Shown: positions 1-26,620 of the stretch, piece by piece | How positions within the stretch are numbered: the first letter of the stretch is position 1 | Layout of the letters: every line of letters begins with the position of its first letter | Translations under genes and position numbers: made by a program | From: a virus | Lineage: Duplodnaviria; Heunggongvirae; Uroviricota; Caudoviricetes | Length of the DNA: 57,824 bases | Reading direction: 5' to 3' (one strand) | Virus record (IMG/VR): IMGVR_UViG_3300042868_014220 | The notes under the pieces: model-generated | Told to the model about the DNA's origin: nothing | The model's database searches: none | What the model saw: only the letters and a program-made list of their open reading frames with translations

Positions 1-708
1 GCTTCCGCTAGTTCCTGATGAACCTGAGCTTCCGCTAGTTCCTGATGAACCACTTGAACCTGAACCAGATGTTCCTGAAGAACCTGAGCTTCCGCTAGTT
101 CCTGATGAACCACTTGAACCTGAACCAGATGTTCCTGAAGAACCTGAGCTTCCGCTTGAACCTGAACCAGATGTTCCCGAAGAACCGCTTGAACCTGACG
201 TTCCTGATGCACCATTTACTCCTGATGTTCCTGACGAACCTGAAGAACCTGAACTTCCACTTGTTCCCGATGAACCACTTGACCCTGATGTTCCAGAAGA
301 ACCTGAACTTCCATTGGTTCCAGACGAACCTGATGTCCCTGAACTTCCACTTGTTCCTGACGAACCTGATGTCCCTGAACTTCCACTTGTTCCTGACGAA
401 CCTGAACGTCCACTACTTCCTGAAGAACCACTTGAACCTGAAGTTCCATTGGCTCCACTTGTTCCTGAACTACCCGAAGAACCGCTTGTTCCTGATAAAC
501 CAGACGTTCCACTTGAACCCGAACTACCCGAAGAACCTGATGTTCCTGAACTACCTGAAGAACCACTTGTTCCTGATGAACCCGAAGTTCCCGATGAACC
601 TGAACTTCCACTTGAACCAGAACTACCTGAAGAGCCAGATGTTCCTGATGAGCCTGAACTACCACTTGAACCTGAGCTTCCACTTGAACCTGAGCTTCCA
701 CTTGTTCC
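1..708 (-). repeat. Gly-X-Y block C (>=236 aa, truncated by window edge)
   Basis: Same repeat with occasional GS dipeptide breaks (GTSGSGSSG). Confidence 0.9.
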
Positions 709-3700
709 AGCAATTGCGCCAACAGAAGTTAATACAAATGAATAGTATGCGTTACCCTCAGTATAATATACAACAGAATGTGATGTAGAATCATTATTGT
801 TTAAGTATAACCTAACAATCATTCTGTTTGTTGGGTCAATAGTTGTTGTTGGTAATACTATATCAACATTTACCTCAACTGGTATCACACTACTTACCCA
901 CCCAATCAGTACAACACTTGATGTAATTGTTGGACCAATCGGAGTTCCTGAACTATTAGCTAATTGTATTTCAACATATGCATCAATATCGTCATTACTT
1001 GCAGGTTTTAAATAATTTAAATGAAATCTTTGAACTCCTGCAGGTATAACTGAAAATCCTAATTGTGGTGTTATATAATCAGATACAAGTATATTTTGAG
1101 CAGAACCTGATAAACTTGTTGTTACTGTTTGTGTTGTTGCTGTTGATGGTTCAGTTGATAACACTTTATAACCCGAAACATCACTATTTTGACTTTCATT
1201 GAAATAAAAAACTTGTCCTGCGGATATACCATTCTCTCCTGATGTTCCTGAAGAGCCTGAACTACCATTAGTTCCTGAAGAACCACTTGAACCAGATGTT
1301 CCACTTGAACCAGATGTTCCACTTGAACCTGAACTACCGCTAGCTCCCGAAGAACCACTTGAACCTGAACTACCACTACTTCCTGATGAACCGCTTATTC
1401 CTGAACTACCGCTAGTTCCTGATGAACCGCTTGAACCAGATGTTCCAGATAAACCACTTGAACCTGAACTTCCGCTTGTTCCTGAACTACCGCTAGCTCC
1501 TGATGAACCGCTTGAGCCTGAAGTTCCACTTGAACCAGATGAACCTGAACTACCACTAGCTCCTGAAGAACCACTAGTTCCTGAAGAACCACTAGTTCCT
1601 GATGTACCACTTGAACCTGAAGAACCATCAGCTCCTGAAGTTCCTGAACTACCACTTGAACCAGCAACTCCTGAAGTTCCTGAACTACCACTTGAACCAG
1701 CAACGCCCGAAGTTCCTGATGAACCTGATGTTCCTGAACTACCCGAACTTCCATTAACACCGCTTGTTCCAGAACTACCTGAAGAACCGCTTGTTCCAGA
1801 ACTACCACTAGTGCCGCTTGAACCTGATGAACCAGCATCTCCTGATGTACCACTTGAACCTGAAGAACCAGATGCTCCTGAAGAACCTGAACTACCGCTA
1901 GTTCCTGACGAACCAGAAGTTCCGTTAGTTCCTGATGTACCACTTGAACCTGAACTACCTGAAGTACCGCTAGTACCTGATGAACCATCACCACCTGCAG
2001 CACCATTTAAGTTTGTTGACCAAGATGTAAGTGTTCCCGTTCCTGTTATTCCAAGAACTTTAAGAGTTAAAGAACCCGTTGATGGATTATAAGATACAAC
2101 TTGTCCATTAAAGTAATCGGTAACACTATTTGCAACAAGAATATCTTGAGATGTAGAATATGATAGATTTGTACTTGTTGTTAATGTTGTATTAACACCA
2201 ACAGATAAAGTTGATAAATTAATTGATGTTGTTGACACACCTGAATATTGTGGAGAAATTCCTGAAGTACCTGAAGAACCACTTGAACCATTTATCCCTG
2301 AGGTTCCTGAAGAACCTGAACTTCCGCTAGTGCCTGAACTACCTGATGAACCAGAAGTTCCTGAAGAACCAGAAGTTCCTGAAGAACCAGAAGTTCCTGA
2401 AGAACCGCTCGAACCTGAAGAACCGCTAGTTCCTGAAGAACCAGATGCACCTGAACTACCACTTGAACCTGAACTTCCGCTAGTTCCTGACGAACCACTT
2501 GAACCAAAACCTGAAGTTCCTGAAGAACCGCTTGAACCAGATGTTCCTGAAGAACCTGAACTACCACTTGTACCTGAACTACCACTTGAACCTGAGCTGC
2601 CACTTGAACCACTTGTACCTGAAGAACCACTTGTTCCCGAAGAACCTGAAGTTCCACTTGAACCAGATGTTCCTGAAGAACCTGAAGAACCTGAAGTTCC
2701 TGAGCTTCCGCTTGAACCCGAACTTCCTGAAGAACCGCTTGAACCTGAGCCAGATGTTCCCGAAGAACCTGAAGTTCCACTTGAACCAGATGTTCCTGAA
2801 GAACCTGAAGAACCTGAAGTTCCTGAGCTTCCGCTTGAACCTGATGTTCCTGAAGAACCTGAGATTCCGCTTGAGCCAGATGTTCCTGAAGAACCTGAAC
2901 TTCCACTTGTACCTGAGCTTCCACTTGAACCAGAAGAACCTGAAGTTCCGCTCGAACCTGATGTTCCTGAAGAACCTGAAGTACCGCTTGAACCTGAAGA
3001 ACCGCTAGTTCCTGATGAGCCAGATGTTCCTGATGAACCTGAACTACCACTTGTACCTGAGCTTCCACTTGAACCAGAAGAGCCTGAAGAACCACTTGAA
3101 CCAGAACTACCGCTTGAGCCAGATGTTCCTGAAGAACCAGAACTACCGCTTGAGCCAGATGTTCCTGAACTTCCGCTCGTTCCTGACGAACCACTTGAGC
3201 CAGAACTTCCACTAGTTCCAGACGACCCACTGGCAGTAAACCCCGAAACAACAACAGTACCACCATAATCATTGGTTAATGTTAAAGTTTGGGTTAAACT
3301 ATCAAATGTTCCACCTGTAATATATGTGTCGGTAAGACCCGTAATTGTTATTGTTCCACCTGTTACATCATAAAGGAGTAAATCACCCGCAGCATAATCA
3401 AAAGTACCACCTGTGATTCCTGCTCCCTGACCTGTTGTTACACCCGTAACTTCAATTTCAGAACCTGTATTTGTTGTAAAAACTAATGTATCTCCCGTGT
3501 ATGTTCCTCCTGTAATTACAGGATATGAACCATTAAAAATTTTCCACCTTGCATTATCCCTTGAAACTCCATTAACACCTTCAATTGTTGAACCCGTCCA
3601 TGCAGAAATAAAATTTCTTCCTTCTTGACTTCTAGAATTAACGGTTGTAGTGTAATCACTAATATTAGTAACATTGGTTTGACCACTGATACCTGCCCAT

Positions 3701-25812: not shown

Positions 25813-25813
25813 T

Positions 25814-26620
25814 ATGAACGAAAAATTATCACTATCCATTATACTACCAATCAAATCATCTAAATCTAAAGATTTTAATGATTATTTTGAGAAAGCAATA
25901 ACTTCAATTAAATCACAAACAGTTGAAGTTGAAGAATTATTAATAGTACACACATCTGAAGAGTCGTTAATTAATCACCTAAATGGTTATGACTTTGGAA
26001 CATTAAATGTTACTAAATTATTATGGGATAAAGACCCTAACTATTGTGAACAAATTAACTACGGTATTAAAAACGCCAAAGGTGTTTGGGTTTCTTTATT
26101 TGAATTTGACGATGAATATTCATCAATATGGTTTAAAAATGTTAAAAAATATATTGAAGCATATCCTCAAACACAAGTATTTTTACCTGTTGTTGTTGAG
26201 ACTGATGAAAAAGGTATATTTGCAGGATTTACCAACGAAGCAACATTTGCCGCTAACTTTAGTCAAGAAATGGGATTTTTATCTAATGAAACTCTACAAG
26301 AATATCAAAATTTCCAAACCTCAGGTAGTGTAATTAAAAAAGAAGTTATTGAAGATTTTGGTGGATTTAAGTCCTCCATAAAGTTAACATATGTTTATGA
26401 GTTTTTGTTAAGATTAACTTATAACTCTGTTTCAATTATGACTATACCAAAACTTGGATACAAACACTCAAACATGAGAGAAGGTTCAATTTTTTGGAAC
26501 TATAAGTTTGGTGAACAAAAAATGTTAGAAGATGAAGTTAAGTTTTGGATTCAAACGGCAAAAAAAGAATTTTTCTTTGTTGACGATAGAGTCATAAAAT
26601 ATCAATCAGAGAATGGATAA
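25814..26620 (+). CDS. Glycosyltransferase, GT-A fold (GT2-like)
   Basis: LSIILPI, SI..Q, QINYGI, LFEFDDEY, YEFLLR; start moved to ATG 25814. Confidence 0.7.
   Translation: MNEKLSLSIILPIKSSKSKDFNDYFEKAITSIKSQTVEVEELLIVHTSEESLINHLNGYDFGTLNVTKLLWDKDPNYCEQINYGIKNAKGVWVSLFEFDDEYSSIWFKNVKKYIEAYPQTQVFLPVVVETDEKGIFAGFTNEATFAANFSQEMGFLSNETLQEYQNFQTSGSVIKKEVIEDFGGFKSSIKLTYVYEFLLRLTYNSVSIMTIPKLGYKHSNMREGSIFWNYKFGEQKMLEDEVKFWIQTAKKEFFFVDDRVIKYQSENG

What the first reader, a model, noticed from the sequence alone, without database searches (positions are those of the whole stretch)
1..26620. Candidate phage-encoded virion glycosylation system: a 17-kb glycan island next to Ser/Thr-polymer virion proteins
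Seen in sequence: 9445..26620 encodes about 10 glycosyltransferases, a nucleotide-sugar pathway and two O-methyltransferases. The same window encodes three proteins dominated by hydroxyl residues: the GSS/GTS fibre (<1..4053), a LamG-like protein with a Thr-Pro linker (4064..6742) and a mucin-like protein (49997..51157). No Wzx/Wzy/ABC exporter, undecaprenyl-phosphate initiating transferase or membrane GT is visible, which argues against a host-envelope O-antigen conversion cassette and fits cytoplasmic acceptors. Established: some mycobacteriophages (e.g. Che8) glycosylate their virions with their own GTs, and giant viruses build glycosylated fibrils. Inference: this phage coats its fibres and capsid with a fucose/colitose-rich, methylated glycan, for shielding, adhesion or mimicry of the fucosylated Bacteroidota surface.
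Basis: partly seen in the sequence, partly recalled or inferred. Interest (0 to 1): 0.85.

Follow-up and report, generated by a model that had tools for sequence, protein, structure and literature searches.

The report
Jumbo-phage soluble glycan assembly line
A huge uncultured freshwater phage carries about ten soluble sugar-linking enzymes with no membrane or export parts; they probably sugar-coat its own particle proteins, but this is unproven, and the link to the collagen-like fibre did not hold up.

Summary
Window 9445-26620 encodes 10 glycosyltransferase-type proteins (11 domains), a His-type ColD, an Fcl/ColC-type reductase, a degenerate UDP-glucose-dehydrogenase-like protein and two O-methyltransferases. 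An exonuclease, a dUTPase and PhoH lie among them. None of the transferases has a membrane segment. The record and four near-complete relatives lack initiating phosphoglycosyl transferases, Wzx, Wzy, ABC-2 and GtrA, while control genomes gave hits.

The three Ser/Thr-rich proteins exist. The fibre is a 1792-aa proline-free Gly-Ser/Thr-Ser collagen-like protein.

New here: the island is a frame of four transferases conserved across the lineage, around a cassette that differs between phages. It runs without a visible terminator into a probable gp55-like late sigma gene.

The proposed tie to the collagen fibre fails the comparative test. The two closest relatives have the same cassette and no collagen fibre at that spot. 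Cassette size does not follow collagen content. In two complete genomes the frame lies 30-85 kb from the fibre locus.

Virion protein glycosylation remains the best reading (about 0.45). Host-surface remodelling is not excluded.

This scan reported the same island type earlier on other DNA (e1-5340774, e1-5443738).

The parts
1..4053 (-). N-terminal 1351 aa of a 1792-aa proline-free collagen-like fibre. It has a conserved 275-aa N-domain, then Gly-Ser/Thr-Ser blocks broken by globular inserts. The gene continues 1326 nt beyond the window's left end.
   Evidence: Pfam Collagen E 7e-104. Full ORF G000:C1:4440-9818. Composition. The N-domain has 63 related viral loci, about half with and half without collagen repeats.
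4064..6742 (-). 892-aa protein with a probable LamG/ConA-like N-part, a ~70-aa Thr-Pro linker and a C-terminal domain. A late-type TATTTAT motif lies 9 nt upstream of its start.
   Evidence: Translation. No Pfam or PHROG hit. Laminin_G_3 lead. Homologue next to the island in all eight syntenic relatives. Motif.
6795..9388 (+). Five small conserved genes of unknown function (one with a WYL domain) that head the + strand block. The first most likely starts at ATG 6795, behind a TATTTAT motif at 6772-6778.
   Evidence: Pfam. Sequence read. Conserved in G004, G008, G009, G011, G016, G021 and G022.
9445..10653 (+). Frame GT 1: soluble GT-B/GT4 glycosyltransferase, a lineage core gene.
   Evidence: Model pLDDT 97; Foldseek matches GlgM, MshA, PglA, BshA and ManT. 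phrog_7162 E 8.5e-44. 7990 of the 8000 candidates scored had E <= 1e-5, and the best 120 are 83-100% identical. 339 clusters at E<1e-30. 64-82% identity in relatives.
10650..11977 (+). 3'-5' exonuclease (PolB-exo-like) and dUTPase: nucleotide-metabolism genes inside the frame, not glycan genes.
   Evidence: Pfam DNA_pol_B_exo2 E 3e-13; dUTPase E 3e-27.
11946..13604 (+). Frame GT 2: two-domain enzyme (GT2_5 N-half + GT4 C-half). The N-half is conserved in all relatives; the C-half varies.
   Evidence: Pfam PF13712 E 1e-26 and PF13439 E 6e-10. Synteny.
13601..23093 (+). Variable cassette (9.5 kb). In order: UGDH-like with Cys->Ser, GT2, GT2, FkbM methyltransferase, DUF4422-like, CmcI-type O-methyltransferase, GT10, GT11, Fcl/ColC-type SDR, His-type ColD, FUT8/NodZ-like fucosyltransferase, DUF6165.
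   Evidence: Pfam and NCBIfam. PDB matches. Fold. Atlas lead. Content differs in every relative.
23121..24758 (+). PhoH-like ATPase and two conserved unknown genes (frame).
   Evidence: Pfam PhoH E 5e-60. 63-85% identity in relatives.
24760..26620 (+). Frame GTs 3 and 4: a GT4 (350 aa) and a GT2 (279 aa), conserved in all relatives.
   Evidence: Pfam. 56-88% identity in relatives. The same pair is in G001-G003.
26620..27369 (+). Probable gp55-like late sigma factor. Its start shares a base (26620) with the end of the last GT gene. The TATTTAT motif resumes 4 nt after it (27373).
   Evidence: Best PDB match of a 10-sequence profile is T4 gp55 (7d7c_F), collinear but E 0.26. NCBIfam sigma70-ECF E 0.001. 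About 8000 close homologues. Weak evidence: inferred.
49997..51157 (-). 386-aa protein with two long Thr-Pro-rich ('mucin-like') stretches, in the head-gene block, behind a TATTTAT motif. No counterpart at the syntenic spot in G004.
   Evidence: Translation. Composition. Motif. Synteny.

Best explanation
The region is a cytoplasmic, lipid-carrier-independent glycan assembly line that is core equipment of a lineage of ~300-kb freshwater phages, probably of Bacteroidota.

Proposed mechanism. Four conserved soluble transferases (GT4 9445, the GT2_5/GT4 fusion, GT4 24760, GT2 25781) attach and build an inner glycan on an acceptor common to the whole lineage. A swappable middle cassette then adds the outer sugars. 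In this phage those would be 6-deoxy and 3,6-dideoxy hexoses of the fucose/colitose type: ColD plus a ColC/Fcl-like reductase working on host-made GDP-4-keto-6-deoxymannose, transferred by GT11, GT10 and a FUT8/NodZ-like enzyme, with O-methyl caps from FkbM- and CmcI-type methyltransferases.

The most likely acceptors are hydroxyl-rich segments of the phage's own late proteins, glycosylated in the cytoplasm before or during assembly: the Thr-Pro linkers found in many of its fibre-type and other modular proteins and, where present, the Gly-Ser/Thr-Ser collagen-like fibre.

Shown: the enzyme families, their solubility, the absence of carrier and export genes, the frame-plus-cassette architecture, and the late-type motif in front of the Ser/Thr-rich genes. 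Inferred: the acceptor, the sugars, the order of steps and the timing.
For: 1. No GT has a membrane segment.
2. Six families needed for lipid-linked synthesis or export are absent from the record and from four relatives that are 91-100% complete, while control genomes gave hits.
3. The four frame GTs are conserved like core virion genes. GT 9445 is 64-70% identical in the more distant syntenic relatives, against 71-78% for the major head protein and 31-35% for the tape-measure-like protein. The best 120 metagenomic homologues listed are 83-100% identical. The frame occurs in all four near-complete genomes. Homologues in other phages even carry LAGLIDADG inteins. A conserved acceptor fits a phage-encoded target better than the variable envelope glycans of different hosts.
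4. The cassette differs even between relatives that share 75-93% protein identity over the island, as expected for an exposed, diversifying outer glycan.
5. In this sub-lineage the block lies between the fibre genes and the tail/baseplate genes. It begins behind a TATTTAT motif of the kind that precedes protease, portal, LamG-like and Thr-Pro-rich genes (15 of 36 occurrences lie just upstream of starts). It has no + strand terminator-like site.
6. A Thr-Pro-linker protein flanks the island in all eight syntenic relatives. G004 encodes 11 such proteins.
7. The fibre's 966 G-X-Y residues hold no Pro and only 5 charged residues, so it lacks the usual stabilisers of bacterial collagen helices. BclA-type collagen-like proteins are O-glycosylated (PMC8968730, PMC7157674).
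8. A relative (G008) has a true TibC/Aah-type protein glycosyltransferase (290 bits) fused to a GT4, just downstream of its collagen fibre on the opposite strand. So protein glycosylation of such fibres is plausible in this lineage.
Against: No glycan has been measured on any phage of this lineage.

None of the ten GTs could be assigned a protein acceptor. GT 9445's structural neighbours use small-molecule, lipid-linked, polysaccharide and protein acceptors alike. The FUT8/NodZ-like enzyme is closer to glycan-acting than to protein O-fucosyltransferases. No TibC/Aah-type enzyme is in this record.

Most cytoplasmic steps of O-antigen synthesis are also done by soluble GTs. So missing carrier genes do not exclude use of host Und-P intermediates and host flippases.

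Adjacency to fibre genes is not general: the frame is 30-85 kb from the fibre locus in G001 and G003.

The closest relatives keep the same cassette without a collagen fibre.

The frame is interleaved with exonuclease, dUTPase and PhoH genes and ends in a probable late sigma gene. That pattern looks like a pre-late metabolic operon rather than a structural one.
Confidence: 0.45

Rival explanations
1. Host-envelope remodelling. The phage GTs act at the cytoplasmic face on host undecaprenyl-linked LPS or capsule intermediates and rely on the host's initiating transferase, flippase and ligase. This changes the infected cell's surface, for example to block superinfection or to stop progeny sticking to debris, as proposed for the 'LPS' clusters of T4-like cyanophages.
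For: GT2, GT4, GT10, GT11, ColD/ColC and FkbM/CmcI-type methyltransferases are the standard content of bacterial O-antigen and capsule loci. Colitose is known to me only from bacterial O-antigens, and a literature search for colitose with phage returned only O-antigen and receptor contexts among the 12 papers listed. The block is co-oriented with nucleotide-metabolism genes and a probable late sigma gene, which suits expression before assembly. The field's default annotation of huge-phage GTs is envelope glycan synthesis (bioRxiv 10.64898/2026.10.24.761521).
Against: No carrier, flippase, polymerase, ligase, ABC-2 or GtrA gene is in four near-complete genomes. Four GTs are conserved at 64-88% identity across phages that probably infect different hosts with different envelope glycans. 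A TATTTAT late-type motif heads the block.
Confidence: 0.25
2. Split function. The conserved frame and the variable cassette serve different acceptors. For example, the frame GTs beside the exonuclease and dUTPase modify one conserved target, and the fucose/colitose cassette decorates another (virion fibres or host surface).
For: Frame and cassette evolve at very different rates. Non-glycan genes separate the GT groups. G001 seems to have little more than the frame, judging from its hit positions. Homologues of GT 9445 in E. coli Phapecoctavirus phages sit in a row of four GTs next to primase/helicase, a DNA methyltransferase and DNA polymerase. A separate TATTTAT motif lies 16 nt before GT11.
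Against: All genes are co-oriented, mostly overlapping, with no internal terminator-like site. One pathway building an inner and an outer glycan is the simpler reading.
Confidence: 0.15
3. DNA hypermodification. Some or all GTs glycosylate hydroxymethylated bases in phage DNA to evade restriction.
For: Phage GTs are known to put mono- to trisaccharides on 5hmC (bioRxiv 10.1101/2023.12.21.572611). Two frame GTs flank an exonuclease and a dUTPase.
Against: Ten GTs, three fucosyltransferase types and sugar O-methyltransferases far exceed known DNA glycans of one to three sugars. The only thymidylate-synthase-family gene of G004 lies about 200 kb from the island and keeps the PPCH and PFNIASY motifs of dUMP-specific enzymes, so it is not a dCMP hydroxymethylase. 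No TET/JBP hit was found, but that search had no positive control.
Confidence: 0.07
4. A soluble product not attached to protein: a cytoplasmic or released methylated oligo- or polysaccharide, or a glycosylated small molecule, made during infection.
For: The closest structural matches of GT 9445 include GlgM, and ManT of the mycobacterial methylmannose polysaccharide, a cytoplasmic carrier-free polymer built by a GT4 plus methyltransferases. Everything in the island is soluble.
Against: I know of no precedent in phages. The structural matches are generic for the GT4 fold. A hypervariable cassette is hard to explain for an internal product.
Confidence: 0.08

Closest known systems
Mycobacteriophage virion glycosylation (Che8 and relatives; Freeman et al. 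2023, Cell Host Microbe, known to me only through citations in PMC12619734 and PMC11256854)
   Same: A tailed phage encodes its own soluble GTs that would modify virion proteins in the cytoplasm without host secretory machinery.
   Different: The mycobacteriophage announcement I could read describes two putative GTs (PMC11256854), and glycans were found at the C-termini of capsid and tail-tube subunits (as summarised in PMC12619734). Here there are about ten GTs, sugar-nucleotide enzymes and methyltransferases, arranged as frame plus cassette. The candidate acceptors are Thr-Pro linkers and a collagen-like fibre. Nothing has been measured.
Autonomous glycosylation of giant viruses: chlorovirus PBCV-1 capsid glycans and Mimivirus fibrils (review PMC4691112, not read here; details from my own knowledge)
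   Same: A virus-encoded, cytoplasmic, ER/Golgi-independent set of GTs plus nucleotide-sugar enzymes and sugar methyltransferases, with fucose-type and methylated sugars. Mimivirus also glycosylates collagen-like proteins (Luther et al. 2011, cited in PMC8968730).
   Different: Those are eukaryotic viruses. No sequence relation was tested beyond family level. Mimivirus collagen is glycosylated on hydroxylysine, and no lysyl hydroxylase is seen here.
'LPS' / cell-wall glycan gene clusters of T4-like cyanomyoviruses
   Same: Clusters of soluble GTs and sugar-nucleotide enzymes in large T4-type phages, without carrier or export genes, with function never shown. The major head protein here is T4-type and its relatives include cyanophages.
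   Different: A different phage lineage and different genes. Here there is a strictly conserved four-GT frame with a swappable cassette. In this sub-lineage it lies between the fibre and tail modules.
BclA (Bacillus) and BclA3-SgtA (Clostridioides difficile) glycosylated collagen-like exosporium proteins (PMC8968730, PMC7157674)
   Same: Gly-X-Y repeat fibres rich in Thr, O-glycosylated by dedicated cytoplasmic GTs. Bacillus anthracis BclA carries rhamnose and a methylated deoxy sugar (PMC6222408).
   Different: The fibre here has no Pro at all and Ser in nearly every Y position. No SgtA relation was tested. Comparative data do not tie the island to the fibre.
GDP-L-colitose pathway of E. coli O55 (Gmd, ColD/WbdK, ColC; PDB 2gms, 3gr9)
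   Same: The ColD homologue (E 1e-61) keeps the catalytic His. An Fcl/ColC-family reductase and a GT11 lie immediately upstream and overlap it.
   Different: Gmd is missing from this record, although relatives have it at the same place. The pathway is not embedded in an O-antigen locus.

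Membership tests
Bacterial O-antigen / capsule locus or phage serotype-conversion (Gtr) cassette | Initiating phosphoglycosyl transferase (WbaP/PglC type or WecA/MraY type) | tested here: not met
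   PF02397 and PF00953: no hit in G000 or in G001-G004 (91-100% complete); control genomes gave hits.
Bacterial O-antigen / capsule locus or phage serotype-conversion (Gtr) cassette | Flippase or exporter and polymerase/ligase (Wzx, Wzy, ABC-2, GtrA) | tested here: not met
   PF01943, PF04932, PF01061 and PF04138: no hit over cut-off in five records; control genomes gave hits. No membrane-type hydrophobic segment in any island protein.
Bacterial O-antigen / capsule locus or phage serotype-conversion (Gtr) cassette | Several GTs plus nucleotide-sugar enzymes in one operon | tested here: met
GDP-L-colitose biosynthesis (Gmd + ColD + ColC) | ColD: PLP/PMP 3-dehydratase with His in place of the Schiff-base Lys | tested here: met
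   Best PDB match is ColD/WbdK (2gms), E 1e-61. The query His aligns with His188, identified through the H188N mutant entry 3b8x.
GDP-L-colitose biosynthesis (Gmd + ColD + ColC) | ColC: Fcl-family 3,5-epimerase/4-reductase | tested here: inconclusive
   NF047922 GDP-L-fucose synthase at 172 bits, below the 500-bit equivalog cut-off. Family membership is clear; ColC versus Fcl specificity is not resolved.
GDP-L-colitose biosynthesis (Gmd + ColD + ColC) | Gmd: GDP-mannose 4,6-dehydratase | tested here: not met
   Only the Fcl-like gene hits PF16363 in G000 (36 bits). Relatives G004 and G021-G023 have full-length Gmd at about 400 bits beside ColC/ColD (also L092). The record covers about 25% of the genome, so a copy elsewhere is possible.
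Phage virion glycosylation (mycobacteriophage type) | Phage-encoded soluble GTs | tested here: met
Phage virion glycosylation (mycobacteriophage type) | Glycans covalently bound to virion proteins | not testable with these tools
   Needs purified virions and mass spectrometry; no isolate exists.
TibC/Aah (BAHT) protein glycosyltransferase paired with Ser/Thr collagen-like fibres (pairing reported earlier in this scan) | TIGR04414-type enzyme in the phage, next to the fibre gene | tested here: not met
   No hit in G000 or in 19 of 20 relatives searched, nor in G021-G023. Present only in G008 (290 bits, 979-aa fusion with a GT4, just downstream of its 2723-aa collagen fibre on the opposite strand). 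The 4.4 kb downstream of the fibre here holds four paralogous structural-looking genes instead.
Collagen triple-helix repeat proteins (PF01391) | Long uninterrupted Gly-X-Y runs | tested here: met
   Pfam E 7e-104 with 12 stretches. 966 residues in runs of five or more triplets. Whether a Pro-free Ser/Thr sequence forms a triple helix was not tested.
Phage DNA sugar-hypermodification gene clusters | GT next to a 5-methylpyrimidine dioxygenase or a pyrimidine hydroxymethylase | tested here: not met
   The thymidylate-synthase-family gene is about 200 kb away in G004 and is of the dUMP type. The Tet_JBP search gave no hit but had no positive control, so that half is inconclusive.
T4 gp55-type late sigma factor (for 26620-27369) | Significant similarity to gp55 / sigma region 2 | tested here: inconclusive
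   gp55 (7d7c_F) is the top PDB hit of the profile and is collinear, but E is 0.26. NCBIfam sigma70-ECF E 0.001, below cut-off. No PHROG hit.

The most novel reading that the evidence does not exclude
The whole lineage of ~300-kb freshwater phages builds a protein-linked 'glycocalyx' on its virions. A conserved four-enzyme core lays down an inner glycan on Thr-Pro linkers and Ser/Thr collagen-like fibres. A fast-swapping cassette then gives each phage a different outer sugar code (here colitose/fucose with O-methyl caps). That code could serve as a shield, or as bait for the glycan-binding uptake systems (SusC/D type) of Bacteroidota hosts. This would be the most elaborate virus-encoded protein glycosylation system known in a bacterial virus, and it would explain how a proline-free Gly-Ser/Thr-Ser collagen can be stable.
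Probability: 0.2. Interest if true: 0.85.

Novelty: new variant of a known kind. Interest (0 to 1): 0.6.

Why it matters
Homologues of the frame enzymes are very numerous in metagenomes. So whatever this system does, it is done on a very large scale in lakes.

If the acceptor is the virion, phage particles of a dominant freshwater lineage carry variable, methylated deoxy-sugar coats. That would affect adsorption, grazing, aggregation and carbon flux, and would extend virion glycosylation from a few mycobacteriophages and giant viruses to jumbo phages of Gram-negative hosts.

If the acceptor is the host envelope, it is a large carrier-free way of rewriting a cell surface during lytic infection.

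Either way, the frame-plus-cassette layout gives a defined set of four conserved enzymes to test first.

Tried and rejected
1. Assigning an acceptor to GT 9445 by structure. The model is excellent, but its neighbours are generic GT4 enzymes with every kind of acceptor. Sequence search against PDB found nothing. The GT2_5/GT4 fusion gave only four matches to unrelated proteins at E >= 0.23.
2. Looking for a direct protein O-fucosyltransferase. 21919-22707 is of the FUT8/NodZ/POFUT fold but closest to FUT8/NodZ, so no claim is made.
3. Cassette size against collagen repeats in six syntenic islands shows no relation. Counting GT2 hits in 20 records does not separate collagen-bearing from collagen-free phages. 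Most records are fragments, so absences mean little.
4. Looking for the TibC-type partner seen elsewhere in the scan: absent here.
5. Longer copies of this phage's genome. The look-up of encoding contigs returned only short contigs. The 321-kb metagenome relative could not be searched as a whole.
6. Origin of ColD. The genome-contig scan found only relatives at 31% identity or less over the gene, apart from one 25-residue fragment at 60%. The scan works by peptide patterns, so this is weak evidence against recent transfer from a host.
7. T4's TATAAATA as the late promoter: not enriched (11 found, 10.7 expected). The enriched motif on the coding strand is TATTTAT.
8. Two papers (Freeman 2023; the Cell Reports version of Pyle 2024) are not held. 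The bioRxiv version of the latter was read instead.
9. No complex prediction was run, because enzyme-substrate pairs are a poor use of that test.

Full report
**What the window is.** The window is bases 5766-63589 of a 73,954-bp IMG/VR viral record that CheckV rates 25% complete. It carries a T4-type major head protein, prohead protease, portal and large terminase. The head protein's nearest cultured relatives are phages of Microcystis, Flavobacterium and Rhodothermus, and the best hits overall include 484-595-kb uncultured phages. Related records that are 91-100% complete are 272-321 kb. It is therefore a fragment of a ~300-kb jumbo phage. Earlier notes of this scan call it a freshwater Bacteroidota phage; I did not test the host.

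Pfam and NCBIfam give the following:
- a weak GT4 at 9445
- a GT2_5 + GT4 fusion at 11946
- GT2 at 14685, 15473 and 25781
- GT10 at 18252 and GT11 at 19056
- GT4 at 24760
- an FkbM methyltransferase at 16159
- a CmcI/rhamnosyl O-methyltransferase at 17607
- an Fcl-family SDR at 19835
- a DegT-family enzyme at 20755
- a UDP-glucose-dehydrogenase-like protein at 13601

I folded two uncertain genes. 9445 is a confident GT-B/GT4 enzyme (pLDDT 97). 21919-22707, which has no Pfam hit, matches only FUT8, NodZ and POFUT fucosyltransferases (pLDDT 94). 16859-17584 has a DUF4422 lead. That makes ten GT-type proteins.

The DegT-family enzyme is a ColD. Its best solved relative is E. coli O55 ColD/WbdK (E 1e-61, against 1e-32 for perosamine synthases), and it keeps the His that replaces the usual Lys.

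Three corrections:
- The dehydrogenase-like protein has Ser in place of the catalytic Cys and an altered Rossmann motif.
- There is no GDP-mannose 4,6-dehydratase in the record, although close relatives have one exactly between the FUT8-like gene and DUF6165.
- The 'island' also contains an exonuclease, a dUTPase and PhoH.

**The hydroxyl-rich proteins are real.** The fibre's full ORF is 1792 aa. It has 966 residues in Gly-X-Y runs, with X = Ser or Thr, Y almost always Ser, no proline and five charged residues. Pfam Collagen scores E 7e-104. 4064-6742 has a ~70-residue Thr-Pro linker, and a LamG/ConA-like fold is supported only as a lead. 49997-51157 is two long Thr-Pro-rich stretches around a small domain.

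**No membrane or export machinery.** No GT has a hydrophobic segment typical of a membrane helix. Searches for Bac_transf, WecA/MraY-type, Wzx, Wzy, ABC-2 and GtrA families were negative in this record and in four relatives that are 91-100% complete, and control genomes gave hits each time.

**Architecture: a conserved frame around a swappable cassette.** I compared the window with eight syntenic relatives. The conserved parts are:
- five small genes
- GT4 9445
- exonuclease and dUTPase
- the N-half of the GT2_5 fusion
- PhoH and two unknown genes
- GT4 24760 and GT2 25781
- gene 26620, followed by tail and baseplate genes

The stretch between the fusion and PhoH differs in every phage:

| Record | Cassette size | Content |
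|---|---|---|
| This window | 9.5 kb | see parts list |
| G011 | 6.6 kb | GT10, GT11, ColC, ColD |
| G016 | 7.8 kb | nothing homologous to this window |
| G009 | 8.8 kb | GT11, GT2 and GT10-like |
| G008 | 3.6 kb | nothing homologous to this window |
| G004 | 7.2 kb | Gmd, ColC, ColD |

Relatives that share 75-93% protein identity over the island have exchanged FkbM and the DUF4422-like gene for an unknown gene and a UDP-galactopyranose mutase, and they hold Gmd.

The frame GTs are core genes. For GT 9445, 7990 of the 8000 candidates scored had E <= 1e-5, and the best 120 are 83-100% identical. There are 339 clusters at 50% identity with E<1e-30. Hits of matching size for all four frame GTs lie together in G001 and G003, and hits matching at least the downstream GT4-GT2 pair and the fusion in G002. 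Some homologues carry LAGLIDADG inteins at two sites.

**Transcription signals.** The word TATTTAT on the coding strand occurs 36 times in the window. Fifteen of these lie 3-60 nt upstream of starts, mostly 3-30 nt. They precede the LamG-like gene, protease, portal, the Thr-Pro-rich gene, baseplate genes and others. A further one lies at 6772-6778, just before ATG 6795, which is probably the true start of the first + strand gene. From there to 26,000 no terminator-like site lies on the + strand, and most genes overlap or abut.

The block ends in 26620-27369. The best solved relative of this gene's profile is T4 gp55, collinear but not significant (E 0.26), and the motif resumes 4 nt after it. 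It says the enzymes are made no later than the structural proteins. That fits virion glycosylation but does not exclude the rivals.

**The comparative test of the fibre link.** The fibre's N-domain has 63 related viral loci. About half continue into Gly-Thr/Ser-Ser/Asn/Asp collagen repeats of up to more than 2,800 residues, and half do not. Several results go against a specific tie between the island and the collagen fibre:
- All four near-complete genomes have the collagen-free form, yet all have the GT frame.
- Cassette size does not follow collagen.
- The two closest relatives of this phage, with the same fucose/colitose cassette, have neither collagen repeats nor the fibre N-domain in the flanks read beyond their LamG-like gene (about 32 kb and 12 kb). 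They have Thr-Pro-linker proteins there.
- In G001 and G003 the frame is 85 and 30 kb from the fibre locus.

What does travel with the island in all eight syntenic relatives is a Thr-Pro-linker protein. G004 has eleven such proteins.

One collagen-bearing relative, G008, has a true TibC/Aah-type protein glycosyltransferase fused to a GT4 right behind its fibre. This is the pairing reported elsewhere in this scan. This phage has none in the 74 kb available.

**Weighing the explanations.**

For a phage-encoded acceptor:
- the complete lack of carrier and export genes in whole genomes
- frame GTs conserved like virion core genes across phages that probably have different hosts
- a diversifying outer cassette
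- late-type promoter motifs
- abundant hydroxyl-rich late proteins
- a collagen sequence with none of the usual stabilisers, where the precedents (BclA, BclA3) are glycosylated (PMC8968730, PMC7157674)

Against:
- no GT can be assigned a protein acceptor
- soluble GTs also do the cytoplasmic steps of O-antigen synthesis
- adjacency is not general
- the block is mixed with nucleotide-metabolism genes

The DNA-glycosylation rival is weak. Known DNA glycans have one to three sugars and sit next to a dioxygenase or hydroxymethylase. The only thymidylate-synthase-family gene in G004 is about 200 kb away and of the dUMP type.

My odds are: virion protein glycosylation about 0.45, host-envelope remodelling 0.25, split function 0.15, DNA 0.07, free glycan 0.08.

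**Novelty.** Virus-encoded virion glycosylation is known for some mycobacteriophages and for giant viruses. A recent paper on large aquatic Bacteroidota phages notes four core GT families and lists DNA, host serotype and virion as possible targets, without deciding (PMC12619734). I did not test whether this phage belongs to that group.

This scan has already described the same island type on other DNA: 'sugar-chain factory with swappable middle' (e1-5340774) and first-reader notes e1-5443738 and e1-5410560. So this window is another instance, not a first sighting.

- whole-genome absence of six carrier and export families
- the failed collagen co-variation test
- the missing Gmd
- the fold of the third fucosyltransferase type
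- inteins in the core GT

Noticed in passing
window 9445-10653 (homologues P0126, P0128, P0131): Homologues of this glycosyltransferase in other metagenomic phages are 767-801 aa because they carry LAGLIDADG homing-endonuclease inserts at two different sites (after about residues 168 and 305). An intein splicing domain was detected in the site-305 form only (P0126). I know of no other intein in a glycosyltransferase. It marks this as a highly conserved, probably essential phage gene.
   Followed up: partly
window 26620-27369 and the motif sites listed; also 6772-6778: The coding-strand motif TATTTAT lies 3-30 nt before many structural-gene starts (15 of 36 occurrences lie upstream of starts). 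A probable gp55-like sigma gene closes the glycan block. T4's own TATAAATA is not enriched. Host-type TAnnTTTG elements precede 33963, 53137 and 55967-56803.
   Followed up: partly
window 22707/22710 junction: Relatives (L092, G004, G021-G023) have a full-length GDP-mannose 4,6-dehydratase in the ColC/ColD neighbourhood: between the FUT8-like gene and DUF6165 in L092, G021 and G022, and between ColC and PhoH in G004. Here the two neighbouring genes are 2 nt apart and Gmd is gone, so this phage would depend on host Gmd or on a copy elsewhere.
   Followed up: yes
window 13601-14758: The UDP-glucose/GDP-mannose-dehydrogenase-like protein has Ser in place of the catalytic Cys (GGPSIPKD against GGSCFPKD) and an altered GxGxxG. 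It is still kept, at 54-57% identity, in close relatives. This may be a changed function or a non-catalytic role.
   Followed up: partly
L002:794-4145 (G000:C1, just left of the window): Four paralogous 274-308-aa Ser/Thr/Gly-rich genes in two pairs lie directly downstream of the fibre gene on the same strand, followed by a Gly_rich_2 domain protein. No family hit. They are possibly fibre-tip or accessory fibre proteins.
   Followed up: no
G008:C1:~31800-34750 (partly in L055): A 979-aa frame joins a TibC/Aah-type protein glycosyltransferase (TIGR04414, 290 bits) to a GT4 domain, just downstream of a 2723-aa Gly-Thr-Ser/Asn collagen-like fibre on the opposite strand. This relative has the smallest cassette (3.6 kb).
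   Followed up: partly
L091 (Escherichia phage ESCO5, NC_047776.2: 107401-110545): Distant homologues (27% identity) of GT 9445 occur in more than 100 Phapecoctavirus-type E. coli and Klebsiella phage records. In ESCO5, the one record examined, the homologue sits in a row of four GT genes beside primase/helicase, an N6-adenine methyltransferase and DNA polymerase. These cultured phages could be used to find the acceptor experimentally.
   Followed up: no
window 35358-35625, 36409-36595, 39973-40355: Gaps between minus-strand head genes hold strong hairpin terminators with A-runs and T-runs on both sides, and at least one small plus-strand ORF behind a TATAAATA word. These may be unannotated small genes or RNAs.
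   Followed up: no
window 36596-38416: The major head protein is 606 aa. About residues 100-340 form an insertion rich in Ser/Thr/Gly/Asn that does not align to the T4-type head profile (the PHROG match covers 339-583). It is possibly a surface-exposed domain.
   Followed up: no
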